From positions 3,869 through 67,868 of IMG/VR virus record IMGVR_UViG_3300046777_000988: a DNA stretch of 64,000 nt. One strand, given 5' to 3'. This DNA is from a virus. Below are positions 1,007 through 40,194 of this stretch, piece by piece; positions within the stretch are counted from its first letter, which is position 1; every line of letters begins with the position of its first letter. A program made the translations under genes and the position numbers. Below the pieces are notes generated by a model. The model had not been told where the DNA came from and searched no databases. It saw nothing but the letters and a program-made list of their open reading frames with translations.

Positions 1007-2275
1007 TTATTGTTCAACAATTCTCTGCTCAAATCTCGCTTGATGCTTGATAAACTTCATCGGTATGGAAATCGCGGCGCCATGCCTGTTATGCGTAATC
1101 TGCATCAAGTAGTCTTCTGGATTCTTCGATTCTTCGTCTTGAATGATTCGCGTGAAGGAATCGCAGTCCATGTAGAATGTTCTCGATTCACGGACGGCTC
1201 CCTGCTCGTTTAGCTGTGCTAGAAGGACAATGCAGACATTCAGTTCCTTTGCGACGATCTTTGCAGTTCTGGATACCTCTGCTACCTCACGCTCGCGGTT
1301 CTTGGGATCGCTGCCTTCCATTAGCTGGGCATAGTCAACCATGATGATCTCAACCTTATGCTCGGCGACCAGCCTCCTGCACCTAGCACGGAATTGGTTC
1401 ACATTCATGCAAGCCTCGTCAACGATATGGATCGGCCTATTCATCGTCTCAGCGATAGCCTTCTGAAGCCTGAAGTGATCCTCTTTGCGTAGCTTGCCGT
1501 CCAGCAAGTCTGAGAGGGCGATGTTTGAGATGCAGGCGATATGCTTGTCCATGATTTCCTCGGCGGACATCTCCATCGAAATGATAGCAATTGGAACATT
1601 GCTCTGGATCGTAGGATTCGTCACCATCTGTAACGCAGAGGTTGTCTTGCCTGCCTTCGCAGCACCAGCGATGACATGCAGCGTCTTGGGCCTAAAAGCC
1701 CGTGTAGCCTTGTCCCACTTGGATATGCCTGATGGATGCCCTCTGTTGATCTCTCCGTTCGTTCTAGCGGCATCCTCCCACCGATTCACGCAGGATGTGA
1801 GGACATCTTTAGCAACGCGAACATCGGTCTTTGTGGATACCATTCCGGTGATCTCTTTGCTAGCTGTTTCCTGTAGAGTTTCTGGATCAATCGTCCTGTC
1901 GAACGCATCCACAAAAATCTGCTTGCAGGTTAGAAGAATCCTTCTGCGGATCATCACATCTTCCATAGTCTGGAGATAGACATCCCAGTTGGCGGATGTG
2001 GGAACAACCGTGTATATCTCGGTGATACCTTGCTCTCCACCTGCCTCTTCCAGCAGACCCTTATTCCGCAACTCGCAGGTTAGCGTTAATAGGTCGATGG
2101 CTTTCTTGTCATACCACATATCCACAATCGTCTGCCAAATATGCTTGTTGGCGTCGAAGTGGAAGTGGTCCTTGTTCACACGATCAACTGTTTTAGAGAT
2201 GATCTTGTTGCTGTTCATTGCAGAGCAAAGGAATCCTTGCTCCGCATTTATATCATGCGGTAGTTCACGCTTCAT
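1007..2275 (-). CDS. dnaB: replicative DNA helicase, DnaB family
   Basis: LPHDINAEQ N-terminus, Walker A AGAAKAGKT, ISMEM, MVDYAQL, LAQLN, RES and NRHG motifs. Confidence 0.95.
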   Translation of the reverse strand: MKRELPHDINAEQGFLCSAMNSNKIISKTVDRVNKDHFHFDANKHIWQTIVDMWYDKKAIDLLTLTCELRNKGLLEEAGGEQGITEIYTVVPTSANWDVYLQTMEDVMIRRRILLTCKQIFVDAFDRTIDPETLQETASKEITGMVSTKTDVRVAKDVLTSCVNRWEDAARTNGEINRGHPSGISKWDKATRAFRPKTLHVIAGAAKAGKTTSALQMVTNPTIQSNVPIAIISMEMSAEEIMDKHIACISNIALSDLLDGKLRKEDHFRLQKAIAETMNRPIHIVDEACMNVNQFRARCRRLVAEHKVEIIMVDYAQLMEGSDPKNREREVAEVSRTAKIVAKELNVCIVLLAQLNEQGAVRESRTFYMDCDSFTRIIQDEESKNPEDYLMQITHNRHGAAISIPMKFIKHQARFEQRIVEQ

Positions 2276-2286
2276 AGGCAGCGTCG

Positions 2287-2314
2287 ATTTTATGCAGGAA
2301 CGCTAGCCCGTCAA
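2287..2314 (-). promoter_or_regulatory. sigma70-type promoter of dnaB
   Basis: TTGACG-N16-TAAAAT, ending 11 nt before the ATG. Confidence 0.6.
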
Positions 2315-2316
2315 TA

Positions 2317-2562
2317 CTATTTTCGCATTCCAAAAAGATTTAGTAGTTCATCTATTGAACTAGAACCGCTGGGCGGTGGAATGTAATCGTCTTCCTCGAC
2401 ATCCGGCTCTTGATTGAAGCCCTGTTTGTAGCCCTCGTCGTATGTAGTGTTGAAGAACTTCCTGAACCCTGAAGCGGTAAGCGTCACCTTGCCGTTTTCC
2501 AGTTGCTCCCGTAGCGCAGGGTTCTTGGACAGGTAGTAAGCAAATAATTTGTCTTTACACAT
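2317..2562 (-). CDS. hypothetical protein
   Basis: 81-aa ORF filling the gap in the minus-strand run. Confidence 0.65.
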   Translation of the reverse strand: MCKDKLFAYYLSKNPALREQLENGKVTLTASGFRKFFNTTYDEGYKQGFNQEPDVEEDDYIPPPSGSSSIDELLNLFGMRK

Positions 2563-2614
2563 TTAATTTAGTGTATAAATATATTAACGAATATTCAACC
2601 AAACAATTTCATTT

Positions 2615-2875
2615 ATGAATAGCTTAAAAGAACAGTATAAAAATATGCTTAGAGGCAACATGGAAGCTGCAAAAGCCAAGAGTGAGGGCGCTGAAGAATA
2701 TGCTACAGAGCTATTTTTCAAACAAAATCCTATGGGAAATAAAGAAGATTTTATAAAAACATATCGGAGAAAACTAAATGAACCAATAAAAGCTCCTGAC
2801 GCTAATAGCGCGGAAGTTAAATTCGGATCGAATCCAAAGAATACTGATTATAGAGGATTCCGCCGACCCTATTAA
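2615..2875 (+). CDS. hypothetical protein
   Basis: 86-aa ORF with AT-rich initiation region. Confidence 0.65.
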   Translation: MNSLKEQYKNMLRGNMEAAKAKSEGAEEYATELFFKQNPMGNKEDFIKTYRRKLNEPIKAPDANSAEVKFGSNPKNTDYRGFRRPY

Positions 2876-2923
2876 CCTGTATTTTGCTATTTTATTTTTC
2901 ATCAAAACATTCTGTAATAGAAT

Positions 2924-3076
2924 ATGAAAAAATACAACTCCCTCAAAGCGTTCTACGATCAGCCGAAAGACGGAAAGAAGATCACGAAAGAGCAGCAGAA
3001 GGCTCGCAAGGGTTTTACGAAGAACCGAGAGACTGGCAAGGTAAAGGCAAAGCAACTCGGCAAACTAAATTACTGA
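2924..3076 (+). CDS. small basic protein (50 aa)
   Basis: Manual translation MKKYNSLKAFYDQPKDGKKITKEQQKARKGFTKNRETGKVKAKQLGKLNY; stop is 1 nt before the next ATG. Confidence 0.6.
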   Translation: MKKYNSLKAFYDQPKDGKKITKEQQKARKGFTKNRETGKVKAKQLGKLNY

Positions 3077-3077
3077 T

Positions 3078-3455
3078 ATGGCTAAATACGGAAACTACGG
3101 CTGGAGTCCTCGTCAGATGGAGCGCATTAACGAACGCCGCGCCAAAAGAGGTCAGGAAGAATTGCGTAATCGCCGTTACGAAGATGAGCCAGAGGAAGAG
3201 CGTCAGCGTCCTTCTGTGCGTCCAACACCAAGTCCAGCTACAAGCCCCTCTCCCAGTCCTGCACCTAGTCCTGCACCTACTCCAGTAGAATACTCGGAAG
3301 AGAGTCCTTCAATGGCGGCAGAGGCTTTTCAGAGAACTGGTGAATTTAGGAAGAAGTTTAAGCCAGCGGGTTCCATGGCTGCTCAGTATGGATACAAGAG
3401 CAGTTTTCCTGTTAAGAAAGATTCATCTATTAATAGCGCCTACAAGCGTCTATAA
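3078..3455 (+). CDS. hypothetical protein with Pro/Ser-rich linker
   Basis: 125-aa ORF with PSPAPSPAP repeats. Confidence 0.7.
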   Translation: MAKYGNYGWSPRQMERINERRAKRGQEELRNRRYEDEPEEERQRPSVRPTPSPATSPSPSPAPSPAPTPVEYSEESPSMAAEAFQRTGEFRKKFKPAGSMAAQYGYKSSFPVKKDSSINSAYKRL

Positions 3456-10828: not shown

Positions 10829-12757
<1,929 letters not shown>

Positions 12758-14909: not shown

Positions 14910-15770
14910 ATGGCAAACAGAAGATACAACGCTCCACGATCAAGATACTCCAACGAGCGAGACATTGACGCTCCTGCTGGAAGGGTTGATTATTTTGAAA
15001 GAGCAATGATGGAGCAGGCTCCTAGAGCGAGATTTGATTATTCACAGCTAGAAGAAGACTATCCAGTTACAACGATAGCTGAAGACTTTATGATTAAAGA
15101 GAGGAAGCGTCAGGAGCAAAGAGGTCTTCAGGAGGAGATCAATTACAGAAAGTCGCTCATCGAAGACAGAGCTTCCCAGCTTGAGCTAAAGAAAGCCGCC
15201 AGAGACTTGGATATGTATGAGTCTCAGATTAACCGAGAAGACGCTATGCTTGAACAGATGCCAGTTGCTAGGCAGAAATTGGCCGAGCTAGATGTCCGTG
15301 ATCCAGACTTCATCAACAAGGCATACGATATTCAAGAGCAGCATCCATTGGCATTTGAGAGCGATCAGTTCCAGAAGTATATCTTCCAGCCAATGCTGAA
15401 CCGCAACTCGCGCCTGTCTAGTCGCCGCCAAGAAGGCATCGTGACTGATGCAGACTTAAAGGAAGCGATGGGAGAGATTTCAAAATACAACGAGCTTATC
15501 TCTGCTAGAGGTGAAGGCGCTGGTCCATCTCCAGAGGAAGAGCGTTACTTGGGTTTCAGACAGAACCAAATCGACCAGTTTTACGCACAGCGTGGAATGG
15601 AGAATCCAATGTCAGCAGCTGCGCCACAGCCAACAGGTATCGCAACACAACCTGCGCTAGCTCCATCTGCTCAACAATTTTCATTTTCCTCTATTGAAGA
15701 AGCTGAATCTGCGGGCTTGCCTGCCGGGACAATTGTGTATATAAATGGTCGAAAAGCAAGAATCGACTAA
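14910..15770 (+). CDS. putative internal virion/ejection protein
   Basis: Coiled-coil; C-terminal SIEEAESAGLPAGTIVYINGR motif. Confidence 0.55.
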   Translation: MANRRYNAPRSRYSNERDIDAPAGRVDYFERAMMEQAPRARFDYSQLEEDYPVTTIAEDFMIKERKRQEQRGLQEEINYRKSLIEDRASQLELKKAARDLDMYESQINREDAMLEQMPVARQKLAELDVRDPDFINKAYDIQEQHPLAFESDQFQKYIFQPMLNRNSRLSSRRQEGIVTDADLKEAMGEISKYNELISARGEGAGPSPEEERYLGFRQNQIDQFYAQRGMENPMSAAAPQPTGIATQPALAPSAQQFSFSSIEEAESAGLPAGTIVYINGRKARID

Positions 15771-18700
15771 TGCCAATTACATTCCTAGATGAAGAAGAGG
15801 ACATTACTCCTCTAGCGCCACCGACTAAAAGAAAGATTACTTTTCTTGACGAAGAAGAGACTGAGATTGCGCCAACAACTCCGCAGGTAGCGCAGCCAGC
15901 AGTTACTCAGCCCTCCCAATACAAGTATGACCCTGCTCGCTTTAGGCCGAAGGGATTGGTAGCGCCGAAAGCTGAACAAGAGATAGGAACGCTTGAAGGC
16001 ATCGCTAACGCAGCGAGGAACGCATTTGATTCATCTAGGCAGGCACTAGACATCGTTGGAGATGTCACTCCAGAGGAAGCGCAGAACATCGCAAAGATTG
16101 AGTTCGACAAACAATCTAGGAAGTTAGCTCCCGGCTACGACGAGTATCAAAAGGCAGAAGGATTCGACGCTGTATTAGCATTTGCCAAGAACCCAATCGA
16201 GGTAACATCGAATATCGTCGCAGAAGGCTTGGCTGGTAGCTTGCCTGCACTCGGCGCAGGATTGGCTGCTGGTGGCGTTGGAGCTGCTATTGGCGCACCT
16301 ACAGGCATTGGCGCACCGATTGGATTTACCGCTGGTCAAGTCGCAGGAACATTCGCTGGCTCGCTTGCTACAGAATACGGAAGCAAGATTCTAGAAGAAA
16401 TGCAGGAAGGTGGCGTTGACCTAACCAAGCCAGAAAGCATTCAAGGATTCTTTGAAAACGAAGAGGCAGTTGCCAAGGCTAGGGATAAAGCTATTAGTCG
16501 CGGTATTCCTGTTGCTGCATTTGACGCTATCTCCGCTGGTATCGGCGGCAAGCTAGGTCGAGTTATCGGCAAACAATTCCTTACCAAGACTGGCGAGGCT
16601 GCTGCTGAACTCGGAGTTCAAGCCGGACTCGGTGGTGGCGGTGAAGTTGCAGGCGCACTTGTTGCTGGCGAGCCAATCGAAGGTAAGGCAGTATTCGGCG
16701 AGATTATCGGCGAAGCCGGACCGGGCGCTGCCGAGATTATTACAGGCCGCATGGCAGACAGGGCCGCTAGAGTTAAAGCAGAAGAGGACGCGAAGATTAA
16801 AGCTGCCGCACAACTATCCGACAACCTTGAGCAGAATAGCGCACCGCTTACCGCTGCCGCAGTTAAATCAACAACCGCTACGACAATCGAGCAGGATAAA
16901 CTTGCGGCACAACTTGAAGAGCAACTAGACGCTGACGAGATCGCTTCACAGGTTAGCGGTCAACTTGCAGTAACGAAAGAACCTACTGCCGCACCTCCAG
17001 CGATTAAGTCTAAAGAAGAATTTACAGCTATCTACTCGCAGGTAGCACCAGAAGAACTAGACGCGGCAGAGGCAGGATTTACGAATACCCTAGCTACCGC
17101 CGCTACAGAAGAGGCCCGTGCTAACGCACAGAACGCCCTAGAAGCGATTAAAGAGGTTAAGGCTACCGTTACACCTCCTGCGCCTACAGTTGAGCCTACA
17201 ATCACCCCAGCAGTTACACCCGCAGTTCCGACTGCACAACCACCCACACCAGATGCCACTCAAGAAATCATCCAGCCAGAAGGCGTTCGTCAAGAACCTC
17301 AAGACAGAGTTGAAGGCGAAACGCCCGCTGAAACAATCGCTCGCAATCGCATATTCGGTGCAGCGCGAGGCCAAGAAGAAGGGCAAGTAGCCCCGACTCC
17401 ACAACCTATTATCTCGGAAATTCCTCCAACTTCCGAGTTAGTAGGTGCAGAACCAACGCAACCTACTATCAGAGAAGTTCCTGAGATTTCTCCAATCGTA
17501 GGTGCGGAGCCTGCCGCTATTGTTGAACAAGAGCCTGTTGCGCCAGCGGAGCCTGCTGTTGCACGACCAAGTATTATATCCGAAGCGTCAAGAATAACCA
17601 ACGAGCTAAAGCAAAGATGGGAACAAACTGCGCCAGAGGATAGGAGAGAAACATTTAATTGGACTAGCCGCGCCGAAGTAGAGCTTGAGAATTTAATTGG
17701 AAATCTTGCTGGAAATCAAAATGCAGCAGCGAGACAAAATCTTATCGAGGAAATTACCGGAACAAAACCAACTCGCCAAAACTCTGCAATCAAGAATGTA
17801 AGACAAGCTATTCGCGGATACCTACAAGCTAATCCTCTACAAGAAACTGCCGCTCCAACTACAGAGGCAGCAGCGCAGCCAGCACCAAAAGGTGTAACGC
17901 AAGTCGCTGGAGTTCCCCCGCTTGTTAAAGAACTAGCAACTGCTGTCAGAGAATCCGCCGCTCAACTTCGCGCAAGAATCTCCAATGTAAAGATGGGGCC
18001 GATTGAAGGCAATGTAGAGACATTCACATTTGATCTTGATGGACAGACATATCGCGGAGAACTCAAGGGGAGAAATAGGAATTTAGTTTTAGGAGCAAAC
18101 CCAACCGCTGATGCTGCGATTGCAACTCGCGTCTTGCTGGATAAAAATGCGACACCAATTACTCCTGTAACGACTCCTCCTGTAACAGAAGCCGTTACAC
18201 CCGCAGCAGAGGCTGCGCCTACTCCCGCAGGCATCTCCGTAGGCAACAGAGTTAAATCTGGCCGCGATCCTAAAGTATATGTCGTAGAGGAAGTGCTACC
18301 GCAAACAGAAGCAGAGCAGCGCGAAGGAGACTATTCTGTAATGCTTCGTGATGAGAAGAGCGGAACTATTGAAAAGTATCCATTCTCCGTTAGAGGACTT
18401 AAATCTCTCGGAGCTAAGAAGCCGCCACTTCCCAAGAAGCTCGCCCGTAGTGGTGCGACATCATACGATTTCTCTCCCCGCAACGCTCTCGCTGCCGATC
18501 AACAGATTTCTAAAGAGCAGATCATCGCAAATGTTCAGAAGGTTTTTGAGGGAGTTCCAGCAGAAAATATCGAAGTAACAAACGAACCATATCCAGATGG
18601 TGAATACGGATATGTAGCTGCATACAATCCTAATACAAACAAGATCGAGATCAACCAAGCATACTACACGCTGGATGACGATATTGACGCAAAAGTATCG

Positions 18701-21700
18701 CACGAACTCGGACACTATCTTTACCAAGACCCGCGCTGGAAGAAAGCATTTGCACGGCTATACAAGAAGCTAACTCCAACAAGTAAGAAGAAACTAGATG
18801 CTTTCTTGGAACAGGTCTATGCAGACTACGAATCAGGCGACTTTAATGAAGAGGCAGAGATTCGTGCATTCGACAGGTTCTTGAAGGAAGCTCCAGATAA
18901 CAGGAACTTATTCCAGAAGTTTATAGACGAGATTCTTGATTTCGTTACAGATGCTCTTTCAGTATTCAGCCCATACTTCAAAACATTGGCCCGTGATCCA
19001 CGCAGGATTGCAAGAAACATCGCGCTTATTTCCTCTGAAAGATTCAAGGCTGGCGAAGTAATCGAAGGCGTTGATACAACGATTGAGCCTGAAGAGTTGC
19101 GGCTAGCTAGAGCGGTAGAATCTCGCAAGGAGCAGGTCGGTGGAGCAGAGCGTGAAGAGACAAGATACATCACGACACCGAAAGGAATCTTGAGCATGAA
19201 CACCGATGTTCTGCGAGAGAAGTTTTTCGACGGAACCAGCGTATCTCCTGAGAAGACAACGCAGGCGTGGGGATATATTTCAAGACTTCTCGACATCAAG
19301 AGCGGCAACGCGAATGAGCTTGCTGGAGAGATTAACGATACTATTGACGCTGATCTTTTAGCAAAACGAGAGGCAGCAATAGCTGCTGGCGAGAAGGTTG
19401 ATCCAGAAGAAGATGTTAGCAAGCGAATTGGAGCAGCGATGTTTAGCGTTGAGTTGATGAACTACGCTGGCAGGCTGGCAGAGCAAGGCGATACACGGAT
19501 GCTCAAGTTTATGATCCGCAATGTTAATTCCATGCCTACCGATAAATACGCTGGAGACATCAGTGATGCAGCAAGAGCTTTGCGGACACGACTTGAATAC
19601 GATGTATCTGGATTCTCTGCATACACAACTGAGCAGAAAGCTAAAGTTGATCGCACTGCTGCCGTAATGTTTGGAACAAATAAACCAAGCAAAGAACAAT
19701 CTGACGCAGTAAAGGATGCTATTGATGAATCCGAGAAGACCGAACTTGGAAACGCTGGCGAGGTGGCTGGAGAGGTTGAGAAAGTAGAGAAAAGAACAAA
19801 GCGTAAAATTACCGATAAGATCGAGAAGGTTATCGGCAAAGGTTCTCTCAAAGGAATGATTCAAGCCGTTAAAGATACTCCGCTTGAGAAACAGCAAGAG
19901 CGTGGATGGATCGAGAAGGTTGTAAATGATTTTCTAATCAACGCTGGTCTTTCACCTGAAGCCGCATCTACTGCATCAAAACTTTACGAGAGCCTAATCG
20001 CAGAACGCTTCGCTGCTGCAAAGCAAAAGGCATTTGAAGACAATCTTAAAAAGGCAGCGCCTTGGAAAAACTACGCAGCTAGAAATAGCCGACTTGCAAA
20101 GGATGCACTAAATAAAGTTCAGGCCGCTATTAGAACCGGAGTTCTTGATCCAGAGAAAAACACTGAAAGCATTATTGCTGCTGAAAGCGGATGGAGCGGA
20201 TTCACCAAGGATCAATACCAGAGAATCGTCCAACTAGACAGCATCATCAACGATCCGAAGCAGGACGATGTGACGAGACGCGAGGCAATGGCTGATCTGA
20301 ATAAAGTCATATCGGATGCCAAGCTGCCAGTTAGATTCAAGGATGCTCTCGGAGCTTACTATGTAGGAAATGCACTGATGGGTATTCCCACATTGACGGT
20401 GAACATTGCTTCCCCGATTGGATTCACGGTTAGAAACCTAATGACCGATGTCAGCAAGTTTGCCTTTACTGATCCTGCTAGAATCCCAGTCGCATTTGAG
20501 ACTTTCATGGAGAGCATGAGGTCTTGGTATGACCAGACATCTTACGCATTCAAGAATCAAATCTACTTGAACGATGTCGTTGAATACCTGCAAGGACAGA
20601 ATGTATTGCGTGAGCTTTTCGATAAAGGCAAGAAGCAATGGTCTGAAGGCAAGTATGCAGAAGGATTTGTGAACATGGCAGTCGGCATGACGCAGATCAC
20701 CGGACGAGTTCTTTCATCGCTTGACCAAGGCGCAATCTCCATGCTGGAGAACCAGAACATTACACGCTATGCGCTGGAAGCTCTGGCTAATACTAAAGGC
20801 AAGGTTCCAAAGGATAAGCTCAAAGAGTTTGCGAACATGGTTATTGATACTCGCAGAAAGACTATCGCTGAGAATATCGCTAATGGAATGTCCCGTGATA
20901 GGGCTGGCGTTCTTGCTGACCTAGCAGTTAAGTCAGAGGTTATTTCTGCATTGGCTCAATACGATGTTAATCCAATGAATGTGCTGGACTCATCAATCAA
21001 CGATGCGTTGCAGTCTGTCGGAAGAAACAAGACGCTAACGATTAAAGGCATTGAGCAGTCTCAGAAGAACATTTCAGACGAAGGCTTCATGTCATATTGG
21101 CCGATTAAACTTCTTGAAATGGTTTCTGCTGGTGCAGGCAGAGAAGGATCGTCAATGCAGATTTTCGCTAAGATGCTTTACGGATTCGCGCTAGTTCCGG
21201 CTAGAGTGTTCCACAATGTTGCTTGGTTCTCTCCGTATGGCTTCATCCGACTTGGAGTTGATAAGTATAAGAAGAACAAAGGAGAAGATTCACCTTATGC
21301 CATGTCCTTGCAGACTGAAGCTCAATACAAGCAGAGGCTAACTGATGCAATCGCTGGCTCTGTTGCAATGCTTGGACTAGCTGCACTTAGCTCTGCATCA
21401 ACTGATGAAGATGAAGACAAGAAGTTCAAGATCGTTATTACTGGTAATGGTCCTAGTGCAACTACTGACAAGCAATACTTCGATTCTTGGATGAAGAAGT
21501 GGAAGCCATACAGCGTCCACATTGTCGTTAATGGAAACATTATCCCGATTAACATTGGTCGAGGTGGTGAAGCGTTGTTCTTCCCAATCATGCTCGCTGG
21601 AGCGTTGGATGACTGGAAGATTAAGCAGAAGCAGAATCTCACCAAGAAAGAGCCAGAAGACTTGAGCGCGATTGCTCAGATGCTTGGTTCTTCGTTCTTC

Positions 21701-22351
21701 GCATTGGCGCAAAGAGGCCCGTATGCCGCATTCACTAAACCTTTGTTTGACGCATCTAAAGACGGACGAGTGACTGAGGAGCTTGCAAGTCAGGCTGGAT
21801 TCTTTGGTAAGACATTCATTCCAGTTCTTGGTTCATCGCTCGCTAGAAACATATCTGACTTGTTTAACGATCCGGTTGACCGTTCATCTATCGAAGGCGC
21901 GATCTACGCTAACACGCCAGTTGTTGGACCTTGGCTTGGAACGAAAGCATTGAACGCTCTAGGCCAACCAATCCGCGCTGATGACTGGGGCGATAAGCTA
22001 TTCAAGTTAGGCGTTCCAGTTGTATTCTCCTTCCCGAAGGAAACTCCGATGAATGAACTGAACGAGCTTATCCTAAAGCAGGGTAGCGGACCTACGATTC
22101 CAACAAGAGCTAACGCACAAAAGAGATTCGGCGATATTCTCACAGACAAAGAGTTTGAAACATATGTGCGTGAATACGGACGGGTTATGTCTGACAAGAT
22201 GTTCAAGAGCAGAACTAAACTTGCAAACATGAAGCCAGCAGACTACGATGATGAGCTTGAAAAATACGCAAGAGGATATTCTATCGACGGCATTAAGATC
22301 AAAGGTGCGTCAGATTCAGCAGTCCTTGCGGTCAAGCGCATGAGACAATGA
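15770..22351 (+). CDS. giant polyvalent/ejection protein (2193 aa) with Gly-zipper segments and a zincin motif
   Basis: Gly/Ala-rich hydrophobic N-terminal region, P/A/E/T linker, AAYNP...IEIN...SHELGH...EEAE, helical C-terminal region. Confidence 0.8.
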   Translation: MPITFLDEEEDITPLAPPTKRKITFLDEEETEIAPTTPQVAQPAVTQPSQYKYDPARFRPKGLVAPKAEQEIGTLEGIANAARNAFDSSRQALDIVGDVTPEEAQNIAKIEFDKQSRKLAPGYDEYQKAEGFDAVLAFAKNPIEVTSNIVAEGLAGSLPALGAGLAAGGVGAAIGAPTGIGAPIGFTAGQVAGTFAGSLATEYGSKILEEMQEGGVDLTKPESIQGFFENEEAVAKARDKAISRGIPVAAFDAISAGIGGKLGRVIGKQFLTKTGEAAAELGVQAGLGGGGEVAGALVAGEPIEGKAVFGEIIGEAGPGAAEIITGRMADRAARVKAEEDAKIKAAAQLSDNLEQNSAPLTAAAVKSTTATTIEQDKLAAQLEEQLDADEIASQVSGQLAVTKEPTAAPPAIKSKEEFTAIYSQVAPEELDAAEAGFTNTLATAATEEARANAQNALEAIKEVKATVTPPAPTVEPTITPAVTPAVPTAQPPTPDATQEIIQPEGVRQEPQDRVEGETPAETIARNRIFGAARGQEEGQVAPTPQPIISEIPPTSELVGAEPTQPTIREVPEISPIVGAEPAAIVEQEPVAPAEPAVARPSIISEASRITNELKQRWEQTAPEDRRETFNWTSRAEVELENLIGNLAGNQNAAARQNLIEEITGTKPTRQNSAIKNVRQAIRGYLQANPLQETAAPTTEAAAQPAPKGVTQVAGVPPLVKELATAVRESAAQLRARISNVKMGPIEGNVETFTFDLDGQTYRGELKGRNRNLVLGANPTADAAIATRVLLDKNATPITPVTTPPVTEAVTPAAEAAPTPAGISVGNRVKSGRDPKVYVVEEVLPQTEAEQREGDYSVMLRDEKSGTIEKYPFSVRGLKSLGAKKPPLPKKLARSGATSYDFSPRNALAADQQISKEQIIANVQKVFEGVPAENIEVTNEPYPDGEYGYVAAYNPNTNKIEINQAYYTLDDDIDAKVSHELGHYLYQDPRWKKAFARLYKKLTPTSKKKLDAFLEQVYADYESGDFNEEAEIRAFDRFLKEAPDNRNLFQKFIDEILDFVTDALSVFSPYFKTLARDPRRIARNIALISSERFKAGEVIEGVDTTIEPEELRLARAVESRKEQVGGAEREETRYITTPKGILSMNTDVLREKFFDGTSVSPEKTTQAWGYISRLLDIKSGNANELAGEINDTIDADLLAKREAAIAAGEKVDPEEDVSKRIGAAMFSVELMNYAGRLAEQGDTRMLKFMIRNVNSMPTDKYAGDISDAARALRTRLEYDVSGFSAYTTEQKAKVDRTAAVMFGTNKPSKEQSDAVKDAIDESEKTELGNAGEVAGEVEKVEKRTKRKITDKIEKVIGKGSLKGMIQAVKDTPLEKQQERGWIEKVVNDFLINAGLSPEAASTASKLYESLIAERFAAAKQKAFEDNLKKAAPWKNYAARNSRLAKDALNKVQAAIRTGVLDPEKNTESIIAAESGWSGFTKDQYQRIVQLDSIINDPKQDDVTRREAMADLNKVISDAKLPVRFKDALGAYYVGNALMGIPTLTVNIASPIGFTVRNLMTDVSKFAFTDPARIPVAFETFMESMRSWYDQTSYAFKNQIYLNDVVEYLQGQNVLRELFDKGKKQWSEGKYAEGFVNMAVGMTQITGRVLSSLDQGAISMLENQNITRYALEALANTKGKVPKDKLKEFANMVIDTRRKTIAENIANGMSRDRAGVLADLAVKSEVISALAQYDVNPMNVLDSSINDALQSVGRNKTLTIKGIEQSQKNISDEGFMSYWPIKLLEMVSAGAGREGSSMQIFAKMLYGFALVPARVFHNVAWFSPYGFIRLGVDKYKKNKGEDSPYAMSLQTEAQYKQRLTDAIAGSVAMLGLAALSSASTDEDEDKKFKIVITGNGPSATTDKQYFDSWMKKWKPYSVHIVVNGNIIPINIGRGGEALFFPIMLAGALDDWKIKQKQNLTKKEPEDLSAIAQMLGSSFFALAQRGPYAAFTKPLFDASKDGRVTEELASQAGFFGKTFIPVLGSSLARNISDLFNDPVDRSSIEGAIYANTPVVGPWLGTKALNALGQPIRADDWGDKLFKLGVPVVFSFPKETPMNELNELILKQGSGPTIPTRANAQKRFGDILTDKEFETYVREYGRVMSDKMFKSRTKLANMKPADYDDELEKYARGYSIDGIKIKGASDSAVLAVKRMRQ
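17253..17390 (+). CDS. small basic protein nested in the +1 frame of the giant gene
   Basis: MPLKKSSSQKAFVKNLKTELKAKRPLKQSLAIAYSVQREAKKKGK, preceded by an A/C-rich leader. Confidence 0.7.
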   Translation: MPLKKSSSQKAFVKNLKTELKAKRPLKQSLAIAYSVQREAKKKGK

Positions 22352-22980
22352 TCGAATACGAGTTTATAGATATGTCAGACTCTCCTCCCGGCGGATGGAA
22401 GATTAAAGTTCCAAAGACCGGAGTTGAGTTTAAGCACTACGACTTCCGCGCTATCAGCAACGCATACAAGTCACACTGCAATGCTAACGGGATATTGCTT
22501 TCTCCTAACTGGCAGGAAGAGTTCCTGTCAGAGATGTGCAAGCAGAACCAGCATTGGGGTAGGAAGTGCAGACCAGCGGTAGCCAATAGCCTGAAGAGAA
22601 GGCGGCTCTCTTTAACCGCTGTATTGTCATTCCTAAACATGCTCAGAGCTTGGGCGCAATCAACGCTATCAGGCAAAGATGCATTCGTTCCTCAAGAGGA
22701 GGCAGAGAGAAGGGCTGGCATTTGCGCTAATTGCCCGTTTAACACAACTCTACAGTTCTCCTGCGGTGCTTGCATGGGAGCAGTCCTGACGCTTATACAC
22801 GGCATCCTCGGCAAAAGAAAGACGCAATACGACAGCAGCCTTGGAGCCTGTCTAATCTGTTCCTGTTCGCTTAAAGCTGCCGTGCATGTCCCGGTTGATG
22901 TGCAGCGAGAGGGATTGAGCGAGGAACTGAAGAACGACTTTGACGAAATCAAATACTGCTGGAAGAGAGTTGAGAAATGA
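22348..22980 (+). CDS. Cys-rich protein with N-terminal PPGGW module
   Basis: PPGGWKI; RRAGICANCP...CGAC...CLICSCSLKA...CW. Confidence 0.75.
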   Translation: MIEYEFIDMSDSPPGGWKIKVPKTGVEFKHYDFRAISNAYKSHCNANGILLSPNWQEEFLSEMCKQNQHWGRKCRPAVANSLKRRRLSLTAVLSFLNMLRAWAQSTLSGKDAFVPQEEAERRAGICANCPFNTTLQFSCGACMGAVLTLIHGILGKRKTQYDSSLGACLICSCSLKAAVHVPVDVQREGLSEELKNDFDEIKYCWKRVEK

Positions 22981-23924
22981 ATTTTCTACATGAACGAGAC
23001 TTTGGCGACATCATACTAAGCCTATCGGTGGTTCAAGCTGCTGGAGGCGGCAACTACTACATTCAAAACAATCCAAATGCAGTCAGGATGCTCAAGCCCC
23101 TGATAGAACTGCAACCATATATCAACAAGTGTAGCGAAAAGAATCTGCTGAGAATAGATAAGTCGTTCGTTGAATTTAGGAGTCAGGGATTACCTTGGGG
23201 TGTTCAGCTTGCAGAGCTTCACGCTAGATGGGTTAAACAACCTACAGATTTCTCAAAGCCTTGGCTATCCGCTCCAAAAGACAACAAGTTCAAAGGCAGG
23301 ATTATTGTTAACAAGACACAGCGATACGCTAACCCGATATTCCCTTGGACAGAACTTGTGAAGTTAATCGGAGGCAGGATGCTATTCGTAGGACACGATC
23401 ACGAATATGAGTTGTTCTGCAAGAGATTCGGCAAAGTCGAAAGGCTCGTCATCAAAGACTACCTAGAGCTTGCTATTGCTATCAATAGCTCGGACTGCTT
23501 CATCGGAAATCAAAGCTCATCGAACTGCGTTGCGGAGGGACTAAAGCATAGAACGATTCAAGAAGTCTGCTTGTGGCAACCGGATTGTATCTATAAACGA
23601 GACAACGCTACATTCTGCTACGATGGCACGATCAATACGAATGTTGCAGGAACTAGTATAAAACTGCAAAGCGGCCTATTGGTTACAACGGTAAACAAGG
23701 CTCAAACTCCTGCTGGTAACTGGAAGCTAACAGTAAACGGCAAGACGATTAAGAGCTATGCGATAGATGCGCTAGTCATCGAGGCGCAGAGCAAAGGCGT
23801 TACAGGAACAAAGCTGGAGATCGAAGATATGATCGTTAAAGAGACGCTGCCAAGCATCACCGGAAACAATGTATCTGAACGACTGGCTCACGATATTCAA
23901 CGAGTTAAAGACCTAATAGGATGA
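22977..23924 (+). CDS. glycosyltransferase, GT9-like (paralog of 5380)
   Basis: HERDFGDIILSL; DYLELAIAINSSDCFIGNQSS; DCIY.R.N.T.C shared with 5380. Confidence 0.75.
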   Translation: MNFLHERDFGDIILSLSVVQAAGGGNYYIQNNPNAVRMLKPLIELQPYINKCSEKNLLRIDKSFVEFRSQGLPWGVQLAELHARWVKQPTDFSKPWLSAPKDNKFKGRIIVNKTQRYANPIFPWTELVKLIGGRMLFVGHDHEYELFCKRFGKVERLVIKDYLELAIAINSSDCFIGNQSSSNCVAEGLKHRTIQEVCLWQPDCIYKRDNATFCYDGTINTNVAGTSIKLQSGLLVTTVNKAQTPAGNWKLTVNGKTIKSYAIDALVIEAQSKGVTGTKLEIEDMIVKETLPSITGNNVSERLAHDIQRVKDLIG

Positions 23925-24499: not shown

Positions 24500-25044
24500 T
24501 AGTTCGCGCTAAACGGCAAGCAAAGGAAGTCGATAAACTTGTTAAGCACTGCAAGAGATTGGATGGAACGAGAGTCCTAGTCATTGACGCTTGCGACAAA
24601 GTTACTTCATACCCAGAGCGGAACAATCACGCACTACATCAGGCATTCGGAGTGATGAAGGATAAGCCTTTCGTTTGGCTGGAGCCTGACAGCATTCCGA
24701 TAAAGAAAGACTGGATGCGAGAGTTGGAAGCTGAATACATCAAGCTAAGAAAACCAATCATGCTATCCAGCGACTCCAATCCTCCGCACGATCTTATCGG
24801 AGGCATCGGGGTGTATGGCGGAATAGCTCGAAAGCTAATACCAGTTGGCATCGAAAAGATCGGATGGGATGGATGGATTATCAATCACATCAAACCACTG
24901 GTATCATTCACATCGCTGATCCAGCATTCATACGGAGATTACTCCAGAGGATGCCAGCCTCACATGTTCCCTAGAGACAATAGGATGATACGAAGTAATT
25001 CAGTGATCTTCCACAGAGACAAGTTTCAGGGTCTTATTGTTTAA
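24487..25044 (+). CDS. GT-A-like putative glycosyltransferase
   Basis: FVWLEPDSIP..KDW...LE.EY, GIGVY, IFH.DK; similar to 27277. Confidence 0.5.
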   Translation: MQAVIVRAKRQAKEVDKLVKHCKRLDGTRVLVIDACDKVTSYPERNNHALHQAFGVMKDKPFVWLEPDSIPIKKDWMRELEAEYIKLRKPIMLSSDSNPPHDLIGGIGVYGGIARKLIPVGIEKIGWDGWIINHIKPLVSFTSLIQHSYGDYSRGCQPHMFPRDNRMIRSNSVIFHRDKFQGLIV

Positions 25045-26837
25045 CCGTAAACTGCCTTAAACTTGCTGAAGCATTGCTTCCAGCCTTTGCTATCAGACTT
25101 GTTATTAGGATTAAGAGCCTTTGTCGCAGTTGTGCTATCTAGGTTCAGACGCTCTCTTGCAAGAGCTAGAAGCCCCATCCCTGCGTCCGCAATGTCAGGA
25201 GAGATACCGAACCGCTGCTTCATCTCAGACTTAGGTAGAACCTTGATGCGTAAGGCGAGATTCTTTTCTCCGTTCGGATCAAGTTTCCGCATACACATCT
25301 CTCGCATCAGATCGTCACCAATCCCTTTGACCTGACCAGTCCGCATATATTCCTTCGCGGAATACCAAATCTCAGAGACAGAGTTCACATACCTATCGTG
25401 AGACGGAGTGGGATCGTAGGCCGATACGGGCTTATCAGATGCCCTGCCACCGAACTGCAATCCGTAAACATCCTTCGACCAAGCTACCGAGATGAAGTCA
25501 CCTAACGGTCCACCAGCGCCAGACTTATCGTAGCCTGCGTTTCTAGGTTGAACTCCCCTAGCCAAGCATTCATTACGGAACCATTGCACAACCTGCTGTG
25601 ATCTCGTCATGGATTGGTCGGTGACATCTTCTTGGAAGATTAGATACTCGTCATACTCCAGCCCCTTGTATCCATGCGGCTCTGCGAGTTTGCCTACAGT
25701 CCCGAAGTAGAGAACGGTTCTATCGCCACCATTCGTGAATGATGGATCGAGGAACGCAACCTTAACCTTCTCGTTATCCAGCCATACAGCCTTATCAGTT
25801 GCCTTAGAATTTAGTATCTCTATTTCTGAGTAAATCTGATCGGTAATTCCTGCTGGACACCAGAATCCGCGATACATACGCCAGAACGATGCTGTATTCC
25901 TAGCCTCCTCTGGAATCTTCTCAAAGTCTGCCGGACCTTCCATCCAAGAATAAATCTTCTTCTTGGCAATCATGTTCGGGTTCTTGACGCCATCGAAGTG
26001 CAAGCATACTCCGCGAACCGTATCCCACTGATCGTCTTCAACGGTAATTGATTCCCAGCCATCTTTAGGCTTGGCGAACTTACCGAATGCGTCCACATAC
26101 GAGGCAGGGTTAGAGATGCCGATGAACTGGAAGCGTTCGCAACCTTTGGACAAGTTGAAGAACGCAACCTCGGTGATAGCCTCAGATAGCTCTGAAAGCT
26201 CGTCAGCAACGAAGATGACATTCTTGTTGTGGATACCCTGCATCTTACCTGTAGCGTCACGCTCCTTCTTCTTCTCGCCGGGAATGAGAACGATGCCCGA
26301 TAGGTCAGATCGCTTGCCGTCTTTCGCTACAAAGCTGATCTTATTCTCTGAATCCACCAGCTTGCCGGGTAAACCTAGTTGCTCGCATACTCCCCAGTAT
26401 TTCGTGATCTTACCCCAGATACGCTGCTTGGATGCTTTGATCGTAGTGGAGGTAGCGAGGACCGTTGTATTCTCAGGATCGGCTAGGTAATTCACAATAG
26501 CCCAGATTGCGTAAGCCTCCGACTTACCGCAGCCACCAGAGCCAGCAATAGCTAGGTATTCGTGATCGCAGGCTGCTCGGATCATTCGCTCTGCCCAAGG
26601 ATGCCAGATGAAATTAACCGCTGCCTTGCTGTCTTTCTCAGGCCAGAGAGCGATAGCGATTCGCTTGAAGTGATGGAATATATCGTATCCGCCAGTATCC
26701 TTCGGAATGCGACCCTTAATCTTTTCACGGAACATCGCAAGCTCGATAGCTATTTGATGTGTTCCTTTCTTCCAGTTGAACCCGTATAAATGAAGATAAC
26801 CCTCGATTGGATCACCGTAAATTGGTGCTGAAGTCAT
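25041..26837 (-). CDS. terL: terminase large subunit
   Basis: Walker A GSGGCGKS, Walker B IFVADE, ISNP, RNase-H-like FLDPS, YD, SPDIADA. Confidence 0.92.
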   Translation of the reverse strand: MTSAPIYGDPIEGYLHLYGFNWKKGTHQIAIELAMFREKIKGRIPKDTGGYDIFHHFKRIAIALWPEKDSKAAVNFIWHPWAERMIRAACDHEYLAIAGSGGCGKSEAYAIWAIVNYLADPENTTVLATSTTIKASKQRIWGKITKYWGVCEQLGLPGKLVDSENKISFVAKDGKRSDLSGIVLIPGEKKKERDATGKMQGIHNKNVIFVADELSELSEAITEVAFFNLSKGCERFQFIGISNPASYVDAFGKFAKPKDGWESITVEDDQWDTVRGVCLHFDGVKNPNMIAKKKIYSWMEGPADFEKIPEEARNTASFWRMYRGFWCPAGITDQIYSEIEILNSKATDKAVWLDNEKVKVAFLDPSFTNGGDRTVLYFGTVGKLAEPHGYKGLEYDEYLIFQEDVTDQSMTRSQQVVQWFRNECLARGVQPRNAGYDKSGAGGPLGDFISVAWSKDVYGLQFGGRASDKPVSAYDPTPSHDRYVNSVSEIWYSAKEYMRTGQVKGIGDDLMREMCMRKLDPNGEKNLALRIKVLPKSEMKQRFGISPDIADAGMGLLALARERLNLDSTTATKALNPNNKSDSKGWKQCFSKFKAVYG

Positions 26838-33767: not shown

Positions 33768-37693
<3,926 letters not shown>

Positions 37694-37938: not shown

Positions 37939-40190
<2,252 letters not shown>

Positions 40191-40194
<4 letters not shown>

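What the first reader, a model, noticed from the sequence alone, without database searches (positions are those of the whole stretch)
17253..17390. Complete small basic gene nested in the +1 frame of the 2193-aa giant gene
Seen: MPLKKSSSQKAFVKNLKTELKAKRPLKQSLAIAYSVQREAKKKGK lies wholly inside the P/A/T linker of ORF 15770, behind an A/C-rich leader (ACAACCACCCACACCAG) like those of real genes here. I recognise the pattern MPLKK..S.K....N...E......KQ..AIA.S from stand-alone small phage proteins. In the host frame the segment reads ATQEIIQPEGVRQEPQ..., breaking the linker composition. Inference: a dual-coded region in which a disordered linker of an ejection protein hosts a DNA-binding peptide gene. 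This could be a general, unannotated feature of such giant genes.
Basis: partly seen in the sequence, partly recalled or inferred. Interest (0 to 1): 0.78.

Follow-up and report, generated by a model that had tools for sequence, protein, structure and literature searches.

The report
Small virion-protein gene nested in giant gene
A 45-codon gene from a widespread family of small, basic phage virion proteins sits, intact and under selection, in a shifted reading frame inside the flexible linker of a 2193-codon phage gene, so this stretch of DNA really does encode two proteins.

Summary
ORF 17253-17390 (45 aa, pI 10.7) lies in the +1 frame of the 2193-aa ORF 15770-22351 of a 67.9-kb freshwater phage. 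It matches phrog_2423 (E 9e-15). The family has hundreds of stand-alone homologues, usually encoded between the large terminase and portal genes. One member was found in purified virions by mass spectrometry.

Eight related phage contigs keep the ORF in the same +1 frame of their giant genes, although the linker around it is almost unalignable. dN/dS is 0.04-0.18 in the small frame and 2.6-17 in the giant frame. The giant frame has no stop there in all six nested copies checked, whereas 75 of 77 non-nested copies have at least one. It is the only family copy in these genomes.

Both gene families are old. The overlap therefore most likely arose when a complete small gene was inserted into a tolerant disordered linker, not by overprinting.

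It is not a general feature of giant genes: only 3 of 80 loci with related giant genes carry it, and one complete relative lacks the family. "DNA-binding" is untested. "Ejection protein" is plausible by synteny only.

The parts
17253..17390 (+). Nested gene: 45 codons plus TAG; a small basic protein (5.1 kDa, pI 10.7) of family phrog_2423; predicted two-helix hairpin (helices 9-21 and 26-44)
   Evidence: Translation. phrog_2423 E 9e-15. Kept in 8 contigs in the +1 frame. dN/dS 0.04-0.18. AlphaFold2 pLDDT 88.6. Charge and pI.
17221..17252 (+). Conserved C/A-rich leader of the nested gene, with no Shine-Dalgarno core. Inferred site of internal translation initiation. The 5' boundary is approximate.
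   Evidence: CTGCACAAC and CAGATG are invariant in the 5-sequence alignment A1. Mean pairwise identity is 0.74 here against 0.62 further upstream. The 20 nt before the ATG have predicted unpaired probability 0.77-0.84: the highest of 20 bins in 3 of 5 diverged copies and second highest in 2 of 5.
15770..22351 (+). Host gene: giant ORF of 2193 codons, probably an internal virion or ejection-type protein. It has a conserved all-alpha N-terminal domain, a hypervariable P/A/T/E linker and a conserved C-terminal half with an HELGH motif.
   Evidence: One open frame of 2034 to 3352 or more codons in relatives. No Pfam, PHROG or PDB match. A distant relative in phage CP2 lies between internal virion protein genes and the tail fibre gene.
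17252..17389 (+). Overlapped segment of the giant frame (residues 495-540, DATQEIIQ...EEGQV): a passively evolving spacer that is kept free of stop codons
   Evidence: dN/dS 2.6-17 in this frame. No stops in 6 of 6 nested copies, against at least one stop in 75 of 77 non-nested family copies read in the same relative frame. Composition.
15941..16975 (+). Conserved N-terminal domain of the giant protein (residues about 58-402), shared with a very large family of giant phage proteins
   Evidence: 1388 representatives at E<=1e-3. Most of the 150 listed are 1500-4500 aa with the match near their N-terminus. 71-79% identical in L011 and L012. AlphaFold2 model is all-alpha, pLDDT 69.

Best explanation
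Shown: window 17253-17390 is a functional protein-coding gene embedded out of frame (+1) in the disordered linker of a giant phage gene. It is a member of the small-protein family phrog_2423 and the only copy of that family in this phage. Purifying selection acts on its own frame. Over the same bases the giant frame evolves freely, except that stop codons are excluded, so both proteins are encoded.

Inferred, origin: both the small-gene family and the giant-gene family are old and widespread, and only one sub-clade of the giant genes holds the small gene. The overlap therefore most likely arose by insertion of a complete small gene, with its leader, into a linker that tolerates almost any sequence. 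It did not arise by de novo overprinting.

Inferred, expression: ribosomes start independently at the ATG, on an unstructured C/A-rich leader within the late mRNA of the giant gene.

Inferred, function: the product is a small, very basic two-helix protein that ends up inside the virion. It may act as a capsid-interior or cargo-associated module that leaves with the DNA and the ejection proteins.
For: Family membership:
- phrog_2423 E 9e-15, residues 1-44 against 1-44 of a 52-position profile.
- 275 of 351 candidate proteins of 24-79 aa match at E<=1e-3.
- 426 relatives in IMG/VR.
- Nine columns are invariant in a 50-sequence alignment: M1 P2 K5 N15 E19 Q28 A31 Y34 S35.

Conservation of the nested copy:
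- It is present in the +1 frame of the giant ORF in the window, L004, L009, L011, L012, L018, L103 and L105. These are all 8 contigs in which the family was found on the giant gene's strand.
- The small protein is 84-98% identical between the window and five of the other nested copies (L004, L009, L011, L012, L018), while the flanks are near random. Mean pairwise nucleotide identity is 0.82 for the ORF and 0.62 for each flank.

Selection:
- NG86 dN/dS is 0.044-0.177 in the small frame and 2.6-17 in the giant frame, over 9 pairs among 5 sequences.
- Variable columns by codon position of the small frame are 15, 5 and 30 of 45 each.

Both frames maintained:
- The giant frame has no stop in 6 of 6 nested copies. 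75 of 77 distinct non-nested copies have 1-8 stops in that relative frame.

Own initiation:
- There is an in-frame stop 2 codons (L004) or 5 codons (L103, L105) before the ATG.
- The leader is conserved and predicted to be unpaired.
- The phage is poor in Shine-Dalgarno sequences (5 of 35 genes).

Sole copy:
- There is one match in the phage's own genome and one in each of 5 of 5 relatives' records.

Insertion rather than overprinting:
- The giant's N-terminal domain has 1388 relatives, mostly at the start of 1500-4500-aa proteins.
- Only 3 of 80 such loci carry the nested gene.
- Complete relative G006 lacks the family.
- 6 of the 7 distinct nested copies form a supported clade (100/88), and one origin is not excluded.

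Virion-interior role:
- Family member ORF22 (S1_022, 7.46 kDa) of Pbunavirus SCUT-S1 was identified in purified particles by nanoLC-MS/MS with 7 peptides and 77% coverage (PMC6521218 Table 1, passages read; gene identity).
- The module is fused to the extreme N-terminus of proteins expected inside capsids. These are a 1721-aa polyvalent protein with LPD23 at 4.6e-23 (L079), an InPase-domain protein at 5.9e-50 (P0125), and the DUF2213 'prohead core protein protease' of Acinetobacter Obolenskvirus (43 bits).
- The Pa193 counterpart (gp24) of the PB1 DUF2213 protein was seen bound to the capsid interior (PMC11456595, passages read). I infer that correspondence from matching gene order and protein masses, not from a sequence comparison.
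- The usual position of the family is between TerL and portal. The portal gene starts within 1.5 kb downstream in 45 of 80 loci. 5 of 5 tested ORFs are phrog_156 portal and 2 of 2 are TerL.
Against: - There is no direct evidence of translation of either frame. The phage is uncultured. The RNA-library contigs that overlap the region cannot show transcription starts or translation, and may be DNA.
- The function is inferred from relatives that are only 44-51% identical to this protein (PB1-like phages) and from domain fusions.
- The two-helix model matched nothing in the PDB, by fold (best E 7) or by sequence.
- A complete related phage does without the gene, so it is accessory.
- The eight nested copies are one lineage. 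They are not independent replicates of the frame statistics.
- The insertion scenario is inferred from distribution. No empty-site or filled-site pair with recognisable junctions was found, because the linkers are unalignable.
- The family tree rests on 45 columns and places L009 in a polytomy.
Confidence: 0.85

Rival explanations
1. The small ORF is a decaying relic of an inserted gene. It is carried along only because the giant gene must stay in frame, and it makes no functional product.
For: The gene is dispensable in a complete relative (G006). No expression data exist (one search is uninformative).
Against: dN/dS is 0.04-0.18 in its own frame, while the host frame shows values above 1. 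Start, stop and length are kept in 8 of 8 copies, with one clean single-codon deletion. The variable columns follow a 15/5/30 pattern by codon position. The leader is conserved. A relic would be expected to drift like the flanks (identity 0.62 against 0.82).
Confidence: 0.04
2. The small frame is reached by programmed ribosomal frameshifting from the giant frame. This would give a truncated N-domain protein ending in the MPLKK module rather than a free 45-aa protein.
For: In the window the small frame is open for 37 codons upstream of the ATG (17142-17252). Phage structural genes often use frameshifts (recalled general knowledge).
Against: In L004, L103 and L105 a stop lies 2-5 codons before the ATG in the small frame. 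The upstream open stretch varies from 1 to 37 codons. No slippery site was searched for, and none stands out in the alignment A1. In every family member seen, stand-alone or fused, the module begins with Met-Pro at the extreme N-terminus.
Confidence: 0.04
3. The 2193-codon frame is not one protein. The real products are an N-terminal protein, the small protein and a C-terminal protein, and the open frame across the small gene is accidental.
For: The overlapped giant-frame segment shows no purifying selection, and its position in the protein varies from residue 373 to 614 among relatives.
Against: The giant frame is uninterrupted in every relative across linkers of very different length (2034 to 3352 or more codons). 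It has no stops across the small gene in 6 of 6 copies, while 75 of 77 non-nested copies would have stops there. Relatives without the small gene are also single giant ORFs with the same N-domain.
Confidence: 0.03
4. The conserved island is a cis-acting RNA or DNA element (a regulatory structure, promoter or packaging signal), and the ORF is incidental.
For: There is an island of nucleotide conservation in a variable region.
Against: The protein-level homology extends to hundreds of stand-alone genes in unrelated phages. The substitution pattern is periodic by codon position. There is no Rfam match at E<=1. There is no sigma-70-like promoter, and terminator-like sites are at chance level (3 found against 2.2 expected).
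Confidence: 0.01

Closest known systems
phrog_2423 small phage proteins (e.g. Pseudomonas phage PB1 gp20, Ab28 gp35 'virion protein', SCUT-S1 ORF22)
   Same: Same family by profile (E 9e-15; PB1 gp20 scores 66.6 bits against the family HMM). Same N-terminal MPL..S......N...E....G.P.KQA.AIAYS core and a basic tail. SCUT-S1 ORF22 was found in virions by mass spectrometry.
   Different: Those genes stand alone, next to portal, MuF-like, terminase or DUF2213 genes. Here the gene has no intergenic space of its own and lies inside another gene's reading frame. Identity to the PB1-like copies is only 44-51%.
Internal out-of-frame overlapping genes of phages (phiX174 E within D; lambda Rz1 within Rz)
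   Same: A complete small gene lies within a larger gene on the same strand in another frame, and both are expressed. phiX174 is described in the review PMC8227390 (passages read). Rz1 within Rz is recalled, not checked; my search for it failed on syntax.
   Different: In the classical cases the nested frame is the young, lineage-restricted, homologue-less product of overprinting (PMC8227390). Here the nested gene is the older and far more widespread one. The host frame over the overlap is the unconstrained one, and the arrangement is best explained by insertion of a ready-made gene.
Polyvalent proteins of phages (Iyer et al. 2017, PMC5512222)
   Same: They are giant multidomain proteins encoded among virion genes, predicted to be packaged and injected (passages read). 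The MPLKK module is fused in frame to the N-terminus of one such protein (L079, with LPD23, weak ART-PolyVal and weak DUF6782) and to an InPase domain (P0125). The window's giant has an HELGH motif.
   Different: The window's giant protein matches none of the Pfam polyvalent-protein domains. The best hit is SprT-like at E 0.3. The module is here a separate out-of-frame gene, not an in-frame header.
Small ejected head proteins of T7-like phages (gp6.7, gp7.3).
   Same: Small proteins encoded just upstream of the portal gene, present in virions and released at infection. This matches the usual genomic position of the MPLKK family and its detection in virions.
   Different: No sequence relationship was tested or is claimed. 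This is an analogy of position and size only.
Pfam DUF6496 (PF20106)
   Same: A small protein family. 15% of the members of one look-alike Atlas cluster carry it (score 0.92, rank 22).
   Different: The protein has no match to PF20106 at E<=10, nor does the six-frame genome. This remains a lead only.

Membership tests
phrog_2423 (small basic phage protein family) | Significant full-length match to the family profile | tested here: met
   E 9e-15, 55.4 bits, residues 1-44 on profile positions 1-44 of 52. 275 of 351 candidates of similar length match at E<=1e-3.
phrog_2423 (small basic phage protein family) | Conserved core residues at the extreme N-terminus (M1 P2 K5 N15 E19 Q28 A31 Y34 S35) | tested here: met
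   All nine columns are invariant in the 50-sequence alignment A2, whose first row is this protein.
phrog_2423 (small basic phage protein family) | Stand-alone gene in a head or packaging module | tested here: not met
   Here the gene is nested in another ORF. Elsewhere the portal gene starts within 1.5 kb downstream in 45 of 80 loci. This is a feature of context, not of the protein.
phrog_2423 (small basic phage protein family) | Product present in virions | not testable with these tools
   Shown only for SCUT-S1 ORF22 (7 peptides, 77% coverage; PMC6521218). The phage of this window is uncultured.
Internal out-of-frame overlapping gene pair | Both reading frames kept open across relatives | tested here: met
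   The nested ORF is intact in 8 of 8 contigs, and the giant frame is open in all of them. There are no giant-frame stops in 6 of 6 nested copies, against at least one stop in 75 of 77 non-nested copies.
Internal out-of-frame overlapping gene pair | Purifying selection on the nested frame | tested here: met
   dN/dS 0.044-0.177. Variable columns 15/5/30 by codon position.
Internal out-of-frame overlapping gene pair | Both proteins actually made | not testable with these tools
   There are only contigs from RNA libraries, which cannot show translation.
Overprinted (de novo) overlapping gene | One of the two frames is lineage-restricted and has no remote homologues | tested here: not met
   The nested gene has hundreds of homologues in unrelated phages. 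The giant's N-domain has 1388. The criterion is taken from PMC8227390 (passages read).
Pfam DUF6496 (PF20106) | Match to the Pfam model at or above its cut-off of 24 bits | tested here: not met
   No PF20106 hit at E<=10 for the protein or for the six-frame genome.
Polyvalent protein (for the giant host gene) | At least one Pfam polyvalent-protein domain (LPD, MPTase, ART-PolyVal, InPase and the like) | tested here: not met
   No family at E<=0.01 on the whole protein. In four pieces, the best relevant hit is SprT-like at E 0.3 around the HELGH motif.
Podovirus internal virion / ejection protein (for the giant host gene) | Homology or conserved position among internal core genes next to tail genes | tested here: inconclusive
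   Only a 75-residue stretch (46.7% identity, E 6e-11) matches the 2478-aa ORF24 of Xanthomonas phage CP2. That gene follows two 'internal virion protein' genes and precedes the tail fibre gene. There are no PHROG or PDB hits.

The most novel reading that the evidence does not exclude
The MPLKK module is a general 'header' that places proteins in the capsid interior and sends them out with the DNA. It can work in cis, as in the fusions to polyvalent proteins, InPase and the DUF2213 head protein, or in trans. In this clade, embedding its gene in the ejection-type giant gene couples the two products in time and amount, as Rz and Rz1 are coupled. More broadly, hypervariable disordered linkers of giant phage proteins would be landing pads where whole foreign genes can insert and stay functional. 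That would be a route to overlapping genes distinct from overprinting, and one that standard gene callers miss.
Probability: 0.2. Interest if true: 0.75.

Novelty: new variant of a known kind. Interest (0 to 1): 0.6.

Why it matters
This is a clean case of true dual coding in an uncultured phage, resting on three lines of sequence evidence that agree. It runs against the usual rule for overlapping genes. Here the small nested gene is the old, widespread one. The large gene's frame is the unconstrained passenger over the overlap.

It points to an origin other than overprinting: insertion of a complete gene into a disordered linker. Gene callers that forbid nested genes would miss the only copy of a virion protein family in these genomes.

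The work also gives the uncharacterised family phrog_2423 a first functional outline. It is virion-associated, portal-proximal, and reused as an N-terminal module on capsid-interior and polyvalent proteins. In passing it exposes a very large family of giant phage proteins, more than 1300 representatives, with no Pfam or PHROG match found here for this member.

Tried and rejected
Searches and tools that gave nothing:
- blastn of 1.1 kb around the site against 50,697 phage records found no match.
- The PDB sequence search found nothing at E<=1 with the giant protein. With the family profile it found only a chance Homer hit at E 1.2.
- Foldseek of the two-helix model gave a best E of 7. Foldseek of the N-domain model gave a best E of 0.78, all helical membrane proteins, so not informative.
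- PF20106 (DUF6496), suggested by the Atlas, did not match.
- Rfam gave nothing at E<=1 in 16000-18500.
- The promoter and terminator scan found no promoter-like site, and terminator-like sites at chance level.
- Pfam and PHROG scans of ten neighbouring ORFs and four pieces of the giant protein were almost empty, so I could not place the portal or capsid genes of this phage.
- Literature searches for 'phrog_2423' or 'DUF6496' returned 0 papers. I found no paper on this family apart from proteome tables.

Ideas considered and rejected:
- I considered that the giant gene arose by fusion of two genes flanking the small gene. I rejected this because the N-domain is normally already the start of giant proteins and relatives without the small gene are single giant ORFs.
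- Antisense stop-free stretches of 151-396 codons cover the small gene in 16 of 80 loci. I took these as chance open frames, not genes.

Sequencing runs: searches show that the phage comes from freshwater samples. Contigs from four RNA libraries overlap parts of 16700-17560. One (X18) covers 17225-17401 only and then diverges. They may be DNA carry-over or relatives, and they show neither transcript ends nor translation.

Tools not used or not available:
- Supplements are closed. Supplementary Tables 3 and 4 of PMC11456595 (the Pa193 virion LC-MS lists) might show whether the Pbunavirus homologue is in virions.
Full report
**What is there.** The window is bases 3869-67868 of a 67,868-bp IMG/VR virus record, estimated 99% complete. 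It comes from freshwater samples. ORF 17253-17390 (+) encodes MPLKKSSSQKAFVKNLKTELKAKRPLKQSLAIAYSVQREAKKKGK. It lies entirely within ORF 15770-22351 (2193 aa), one base 3' of that frame. The 17 bases before its ATG are ACAACCACCCACACCAG. In the giant frame the overlapped bases read residues 495-540, DATQEIIQPEGVRQEPQDRVEGETPAETIARNRIFGAARGQEEGQV. This segment is 30% P/A/T/V and 52% R/Q/G/E, against 72% and 13% just upstream. An ORF of this size in an alternative frame is common; one search lists 80 ORFs of at least 30 aa in 15000-23000. The case therefore rests on homology and conservation.

**The small protein belongs to a real and large family.**
- It matches phrog_2423 at E 9e-15 over its whole length. 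It has no Pfam match.
- tblastn against 50,697 phage records finds 554 records at the lenient limit of E<=10. The 60 best range from 2e-9 to 1e-2.
- In the 5.8-billion-protein collection, 275 of 351 candidates of 24-79 aa match at E<=1e-3. Most are 43-50 aa long.
- Fifty of these align with nine invariant columns: M1 P2 K5 N15 E19 Q28 A31 Y34 S35.
- In annotated phages these are separate small genes in head or packaging modules. In DSL-LC05 the gene lies before a GroES-like gene and the portal gene. In PB1 and Ab28 it lies after the portal and the MuF-like head-morphogenesis genes. In MW202484 it lies before the terminase and portal genes.

**The nested copy is conserved and selected.** Relatives of the giant gene were fetched from IMG/VR. 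Every contig in which the family occurs on the giant gene's strand carries the small ORF, and always in the +1 frame of an uninterrupted giant ORF of 2034 to more than 3300 codons. These contigs are the window, L004, L009, L011 (the same contig as L101), L012, L018, L103 and L105.
- The small protein is 84-98% identical between the window and five of the other nested copies (L004, L009, L011, L012, L018). The linker around it is almost unalignable. Mean pairwise nucleotide identity is 0.82 in the ORF, 0.74 in the 35-nt leader and 0.62 in the 150 nt on either side. This comes from 15 pairs of 6 sequences; about 0.5-0.55 is my estimate, not measured, of what this scoring gives for unrelated sequence.
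- Nei-Gojobori dN/dS for the nine informative pairs is 0.044-0.177 in the small frame and 2.6-17 in the giant frame.
- Variable columns fall 15, 5 and 30 on codon positions 1, 2 and 3 of the small frame. This is the signature of a protein-coding sequence read in that frame.
- It is also the reverse of what the giant frame would show if that frame were the constrained one.
- The nested copy is the only family member in the phage's own genome and in each of five relatives' records, two of which are at least 99% complete.

**The giant frame is also maintained.** I read 77 distinct non-nested family copies in the relative frame that the giant gene uses. Seventy-five have 1-8 stop codons and only 2 have none. 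All six nested copies examined have none. Codon choice in the nested gene is therefore restricted so that the giant protein can be read through. The segment is truly dual-coding, with asymmetric constraint: the small frame carries the amino-acid constraint, and the giant frame carries only the requirement to have no stops and to stay in frame.

**How the small gene is probably expressed (inferred).**
- In L004 a TAA lies two codons before the ATG in the small frame. In L103 and L105 a TAG lies five codons before it. Entry by frameshifting from upstream is therefore excluded in those copies.
- Every family member seen begins with Met-Pro.
- The leader is C/A-rich and partly invariant: CTGCACAAC and CAGATG in the five-sequence alignment.
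- It is predicted to be the least structured stretch locally. Unpaired probability is 0.77-0.84 in the 20 nt before the ATG. That is the top bin of 20 in 3 of 5 diverged copies and the second in 2 of 5.
- Only 5 of 35 genes of this phage have a 4-nt Shine-Dalgarno core, so the missing SD is normal here.
- No sigma-70-like promoter, above-chance terminator or Rfam family lies in the region.

**Origin (inferred).**
- The giant protein's N-terminal domain (residues about 58-402) has 1388 representatives at E<=1e-3. Most of the 150 listed are 1500-4500 aa with the match near their start. The giant gene family is therefore old and was already giant.
- Of 80 IMG/VR loci with this domain, only L101, L103 and L105 hold the nested gene. 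Two others hold a weak family hit on the opposite strand several kb away. Seventy-five hold none within 10 kb.
- The complete relative G006 (70,180 bp, terminal repeats) has no family copy; its best hit is E 0.02 at 11.5 bits.
- In a family tree, six of the seven distinct nested copies form a supported clade (100/88). The seventh, L009, sits in the same polytomy, and a single origin is not excluded. With 45 columns the resolution is low.
- Both partners therefore predate the overlap. By the phylogenetic criterion described in the review PMC8227390 (passages read), the small frame is the ancestral one within the overlap.
- The giant's frame is the young, disordered one, and it is shifted two bases 3' of the small frame.
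- I conclude that a complete small gene with its leader was inserted into a linker that tolerates nearly any sequence. The insert's other frame happened to be, or soon became, stop-free.
- I could not find junctions or an empty site, because the linkers do not align. The shadow of the small gene sits at residue 373, 495, 541 or 614 of different giant proteins.

**What the small protein probably does (inferred).**
- It is 5.1 kDa with pI 10.7, 14 K+R and 2 D+E. AlphaFold2 with the family alignment predicts a two-helix hairpin, helices 9-21 and 26-44, pLDDT 88.6. There are no PDB matches by fold or sequence.
- Virion evidence: ORF22 of Pbunavirus SCUT-S1 (S1_022, 12282-12488, 7.46 kDa) is the family member hit by tblastn at 12282-12410. 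It was identified by nanoLC-MS/MS in purified particles with 7 peptides and 77% coverage (PMC6521218, Table 1 and section 3.4 passages).
- Position: a phrog_156-type portal gene starts within 1.5 kb downstream on the same strand in 45 of 80 family loci. It starts 1.7-3.6 kb downstream in 14 more and lies upstream in 1. Twenty loci have no hit, several of them for lack of room on the contig. Five of 5 tested downstream ORFs are portal and 2 of 2 tested upstream ORFs are large terminase. These loci are dominated by related podophage-like contigs, so they are not independent.
- Fusions, always at the extreme N-terminus:
  - a 1721-aa polyvalent protein (L079), with LPD23 at 4.6e-23 and weak ART-PolyVal and DUF6782;
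  - an InPase-domain protein (P0125, 5.9e-50);
  - acidic proteins of 171-221 aa (L016, L066, L095);
  - the 453-aa 'prohead core protein protease' of Acinetobacter Obolenskvirus phages (43 bits), which carries DUF2213 just as PB1 gp22 does.
- The Pa193 protein gp24, which I take to be the counterpart of PB1 gp22 from matching gene order and masses (not compared by sequence), was seen bound to the capsid interior (PMC11456595, passages).
- Polyvalent proteins are predicted to be packaged and injected (PMC5512222, passages).
- In the half of the family tree that holds the nested copies, other members lie directly downstream of large genes. Examples are L040, after a phrog_770 'DNA transfer protein', and L022 and L030, after ORFs of at least 1929 and 1030 codons.
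- Together this points to a capsid-interior, cargo-associated small protein or module. DNA binding is plausible from the charge but untested.

**The giant host gene.** It has no Pfam, PHROG or PDB sequence match. The N-domain model is all-alpha (pLDDT 69) and has no significant structural match. A 75-residue Gly-rich hydrophobic stretch matches the 2478-aa ORF24 of Xanthomonas phage CP2 (46.7% identity, E 6e-11). That gene follows two 'internal virion protein' genes and an 'endolysin' gene and precedes the tail fibre gene. 'Ejection or internal virion protein' is therefore a reasonable label by position, but it is not demonstrated.

**Verdict.** The generalisation to giant genes at large does not hold: 3 of 80 N-domain loci and 1 of 80 family loci are nested. 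Gene-within-gene arrangements are known in phages. The new element is the direction and origin: an old, widespread virion-protein gene lodged inside a younger, unconstrained stretch of an old giant gene. No experiment on this uncultured phage exists, so translation of both frames remains inferred from sequence evolution.

Noticed in passing
window 15941-16975 (giant protein residues about 58-402); proteins P0135-P0284: The N-terminal domain of the giant protein defines a very large family: 1388 representatives at E<=1e-3, and most of the 150 listed are 1500-4500 aa. The window's member has no Pfam, PHROG or PDB match. The predicted fold is all-alpha with Gly-rich hydrophobic helices. The only cultured relatives found are CP2-like Xanthomonas phages and a Limnohabitans phage.
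   Followed up: partly
L079 6001-11166; L066 3476-4138; L095 6001-6609; L016 9001-9516; P0125: In every in-frame fusion the MPLKK module is followed within a few residues by a G-G motif (AEGGEV, AEGGAV, AKGGMI, AIGGSM, EMGGST). Similar [AK][EKR]GG[KEAx][VI] motifs recur further along these proteins; L079 has about five. They may be processing sites, but this was not tested.
   Followed up: no
L099 2501-3862 (Acinetobacter phage YNAF) versus L098 2501-2707 and 3396-4793 (phage PB1): This is a Rosetta-stone pattern. In Obolenskvirus the module is fused to the DUF2213 'prohead core protein protease'. In PB1-like phages the module (gp20) and the DUF2213 protein (gp22) are separate genes two positions apart.
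   Followed up: partly
L004 2893-11739 versus window 15707-22351: The closest relative (99% identical in the best aligned segment) has a giant frame of 2949 codons stop-to-stop, against 2215 in the window. Near-identical phages therefore differ by roughly 730 codons in this gene, which shows how plastic the linker region is.
   Followed up: no
G006 (record holding L102; 70,180 bp with terminal repeats): This complete related phage has a homologous giant gene (N-domain 57% identical) but no detectable copy of the small-gene family. The best hit is E 0.02 at 11.5 bits.
   Followed up: partly
window 25041-26837 (-): This is probably the large terminase subunit. It matches phrog_5902 (1.1e-7), a family that matches the terminase large-subunit ORFs of other loci alongside phrog_2.
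   Followed up: no
window 40191-43175 (+); 10829-12757, 34127-37693 and 37939-40194 (+): A 994-aa protein carries six PATR (passenger-associated transport) repeats (2e-34). Three large collagen-like tail-fibre proteins lie on either side of the giant gene block.
   Followed up: no
proteins P0122, P0123, P0124, P0130: Some family members are called with an N-terminal extension of 45-75 residues ending in a conserved ...KKATTRSK(T/K) directly before MPLKK. This is either a real upstream fusion in one lineage or a start called too early.
   Followed up: no
window 17225-17401 (run X18, record 3): A 232-base contig from a freshwater RNA library matches only the leader plus the nested ORF, with 4 differences, and then runs on into unlike sequence. 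This is the same island of conservation seen in yet another relative.
   Followed up: no
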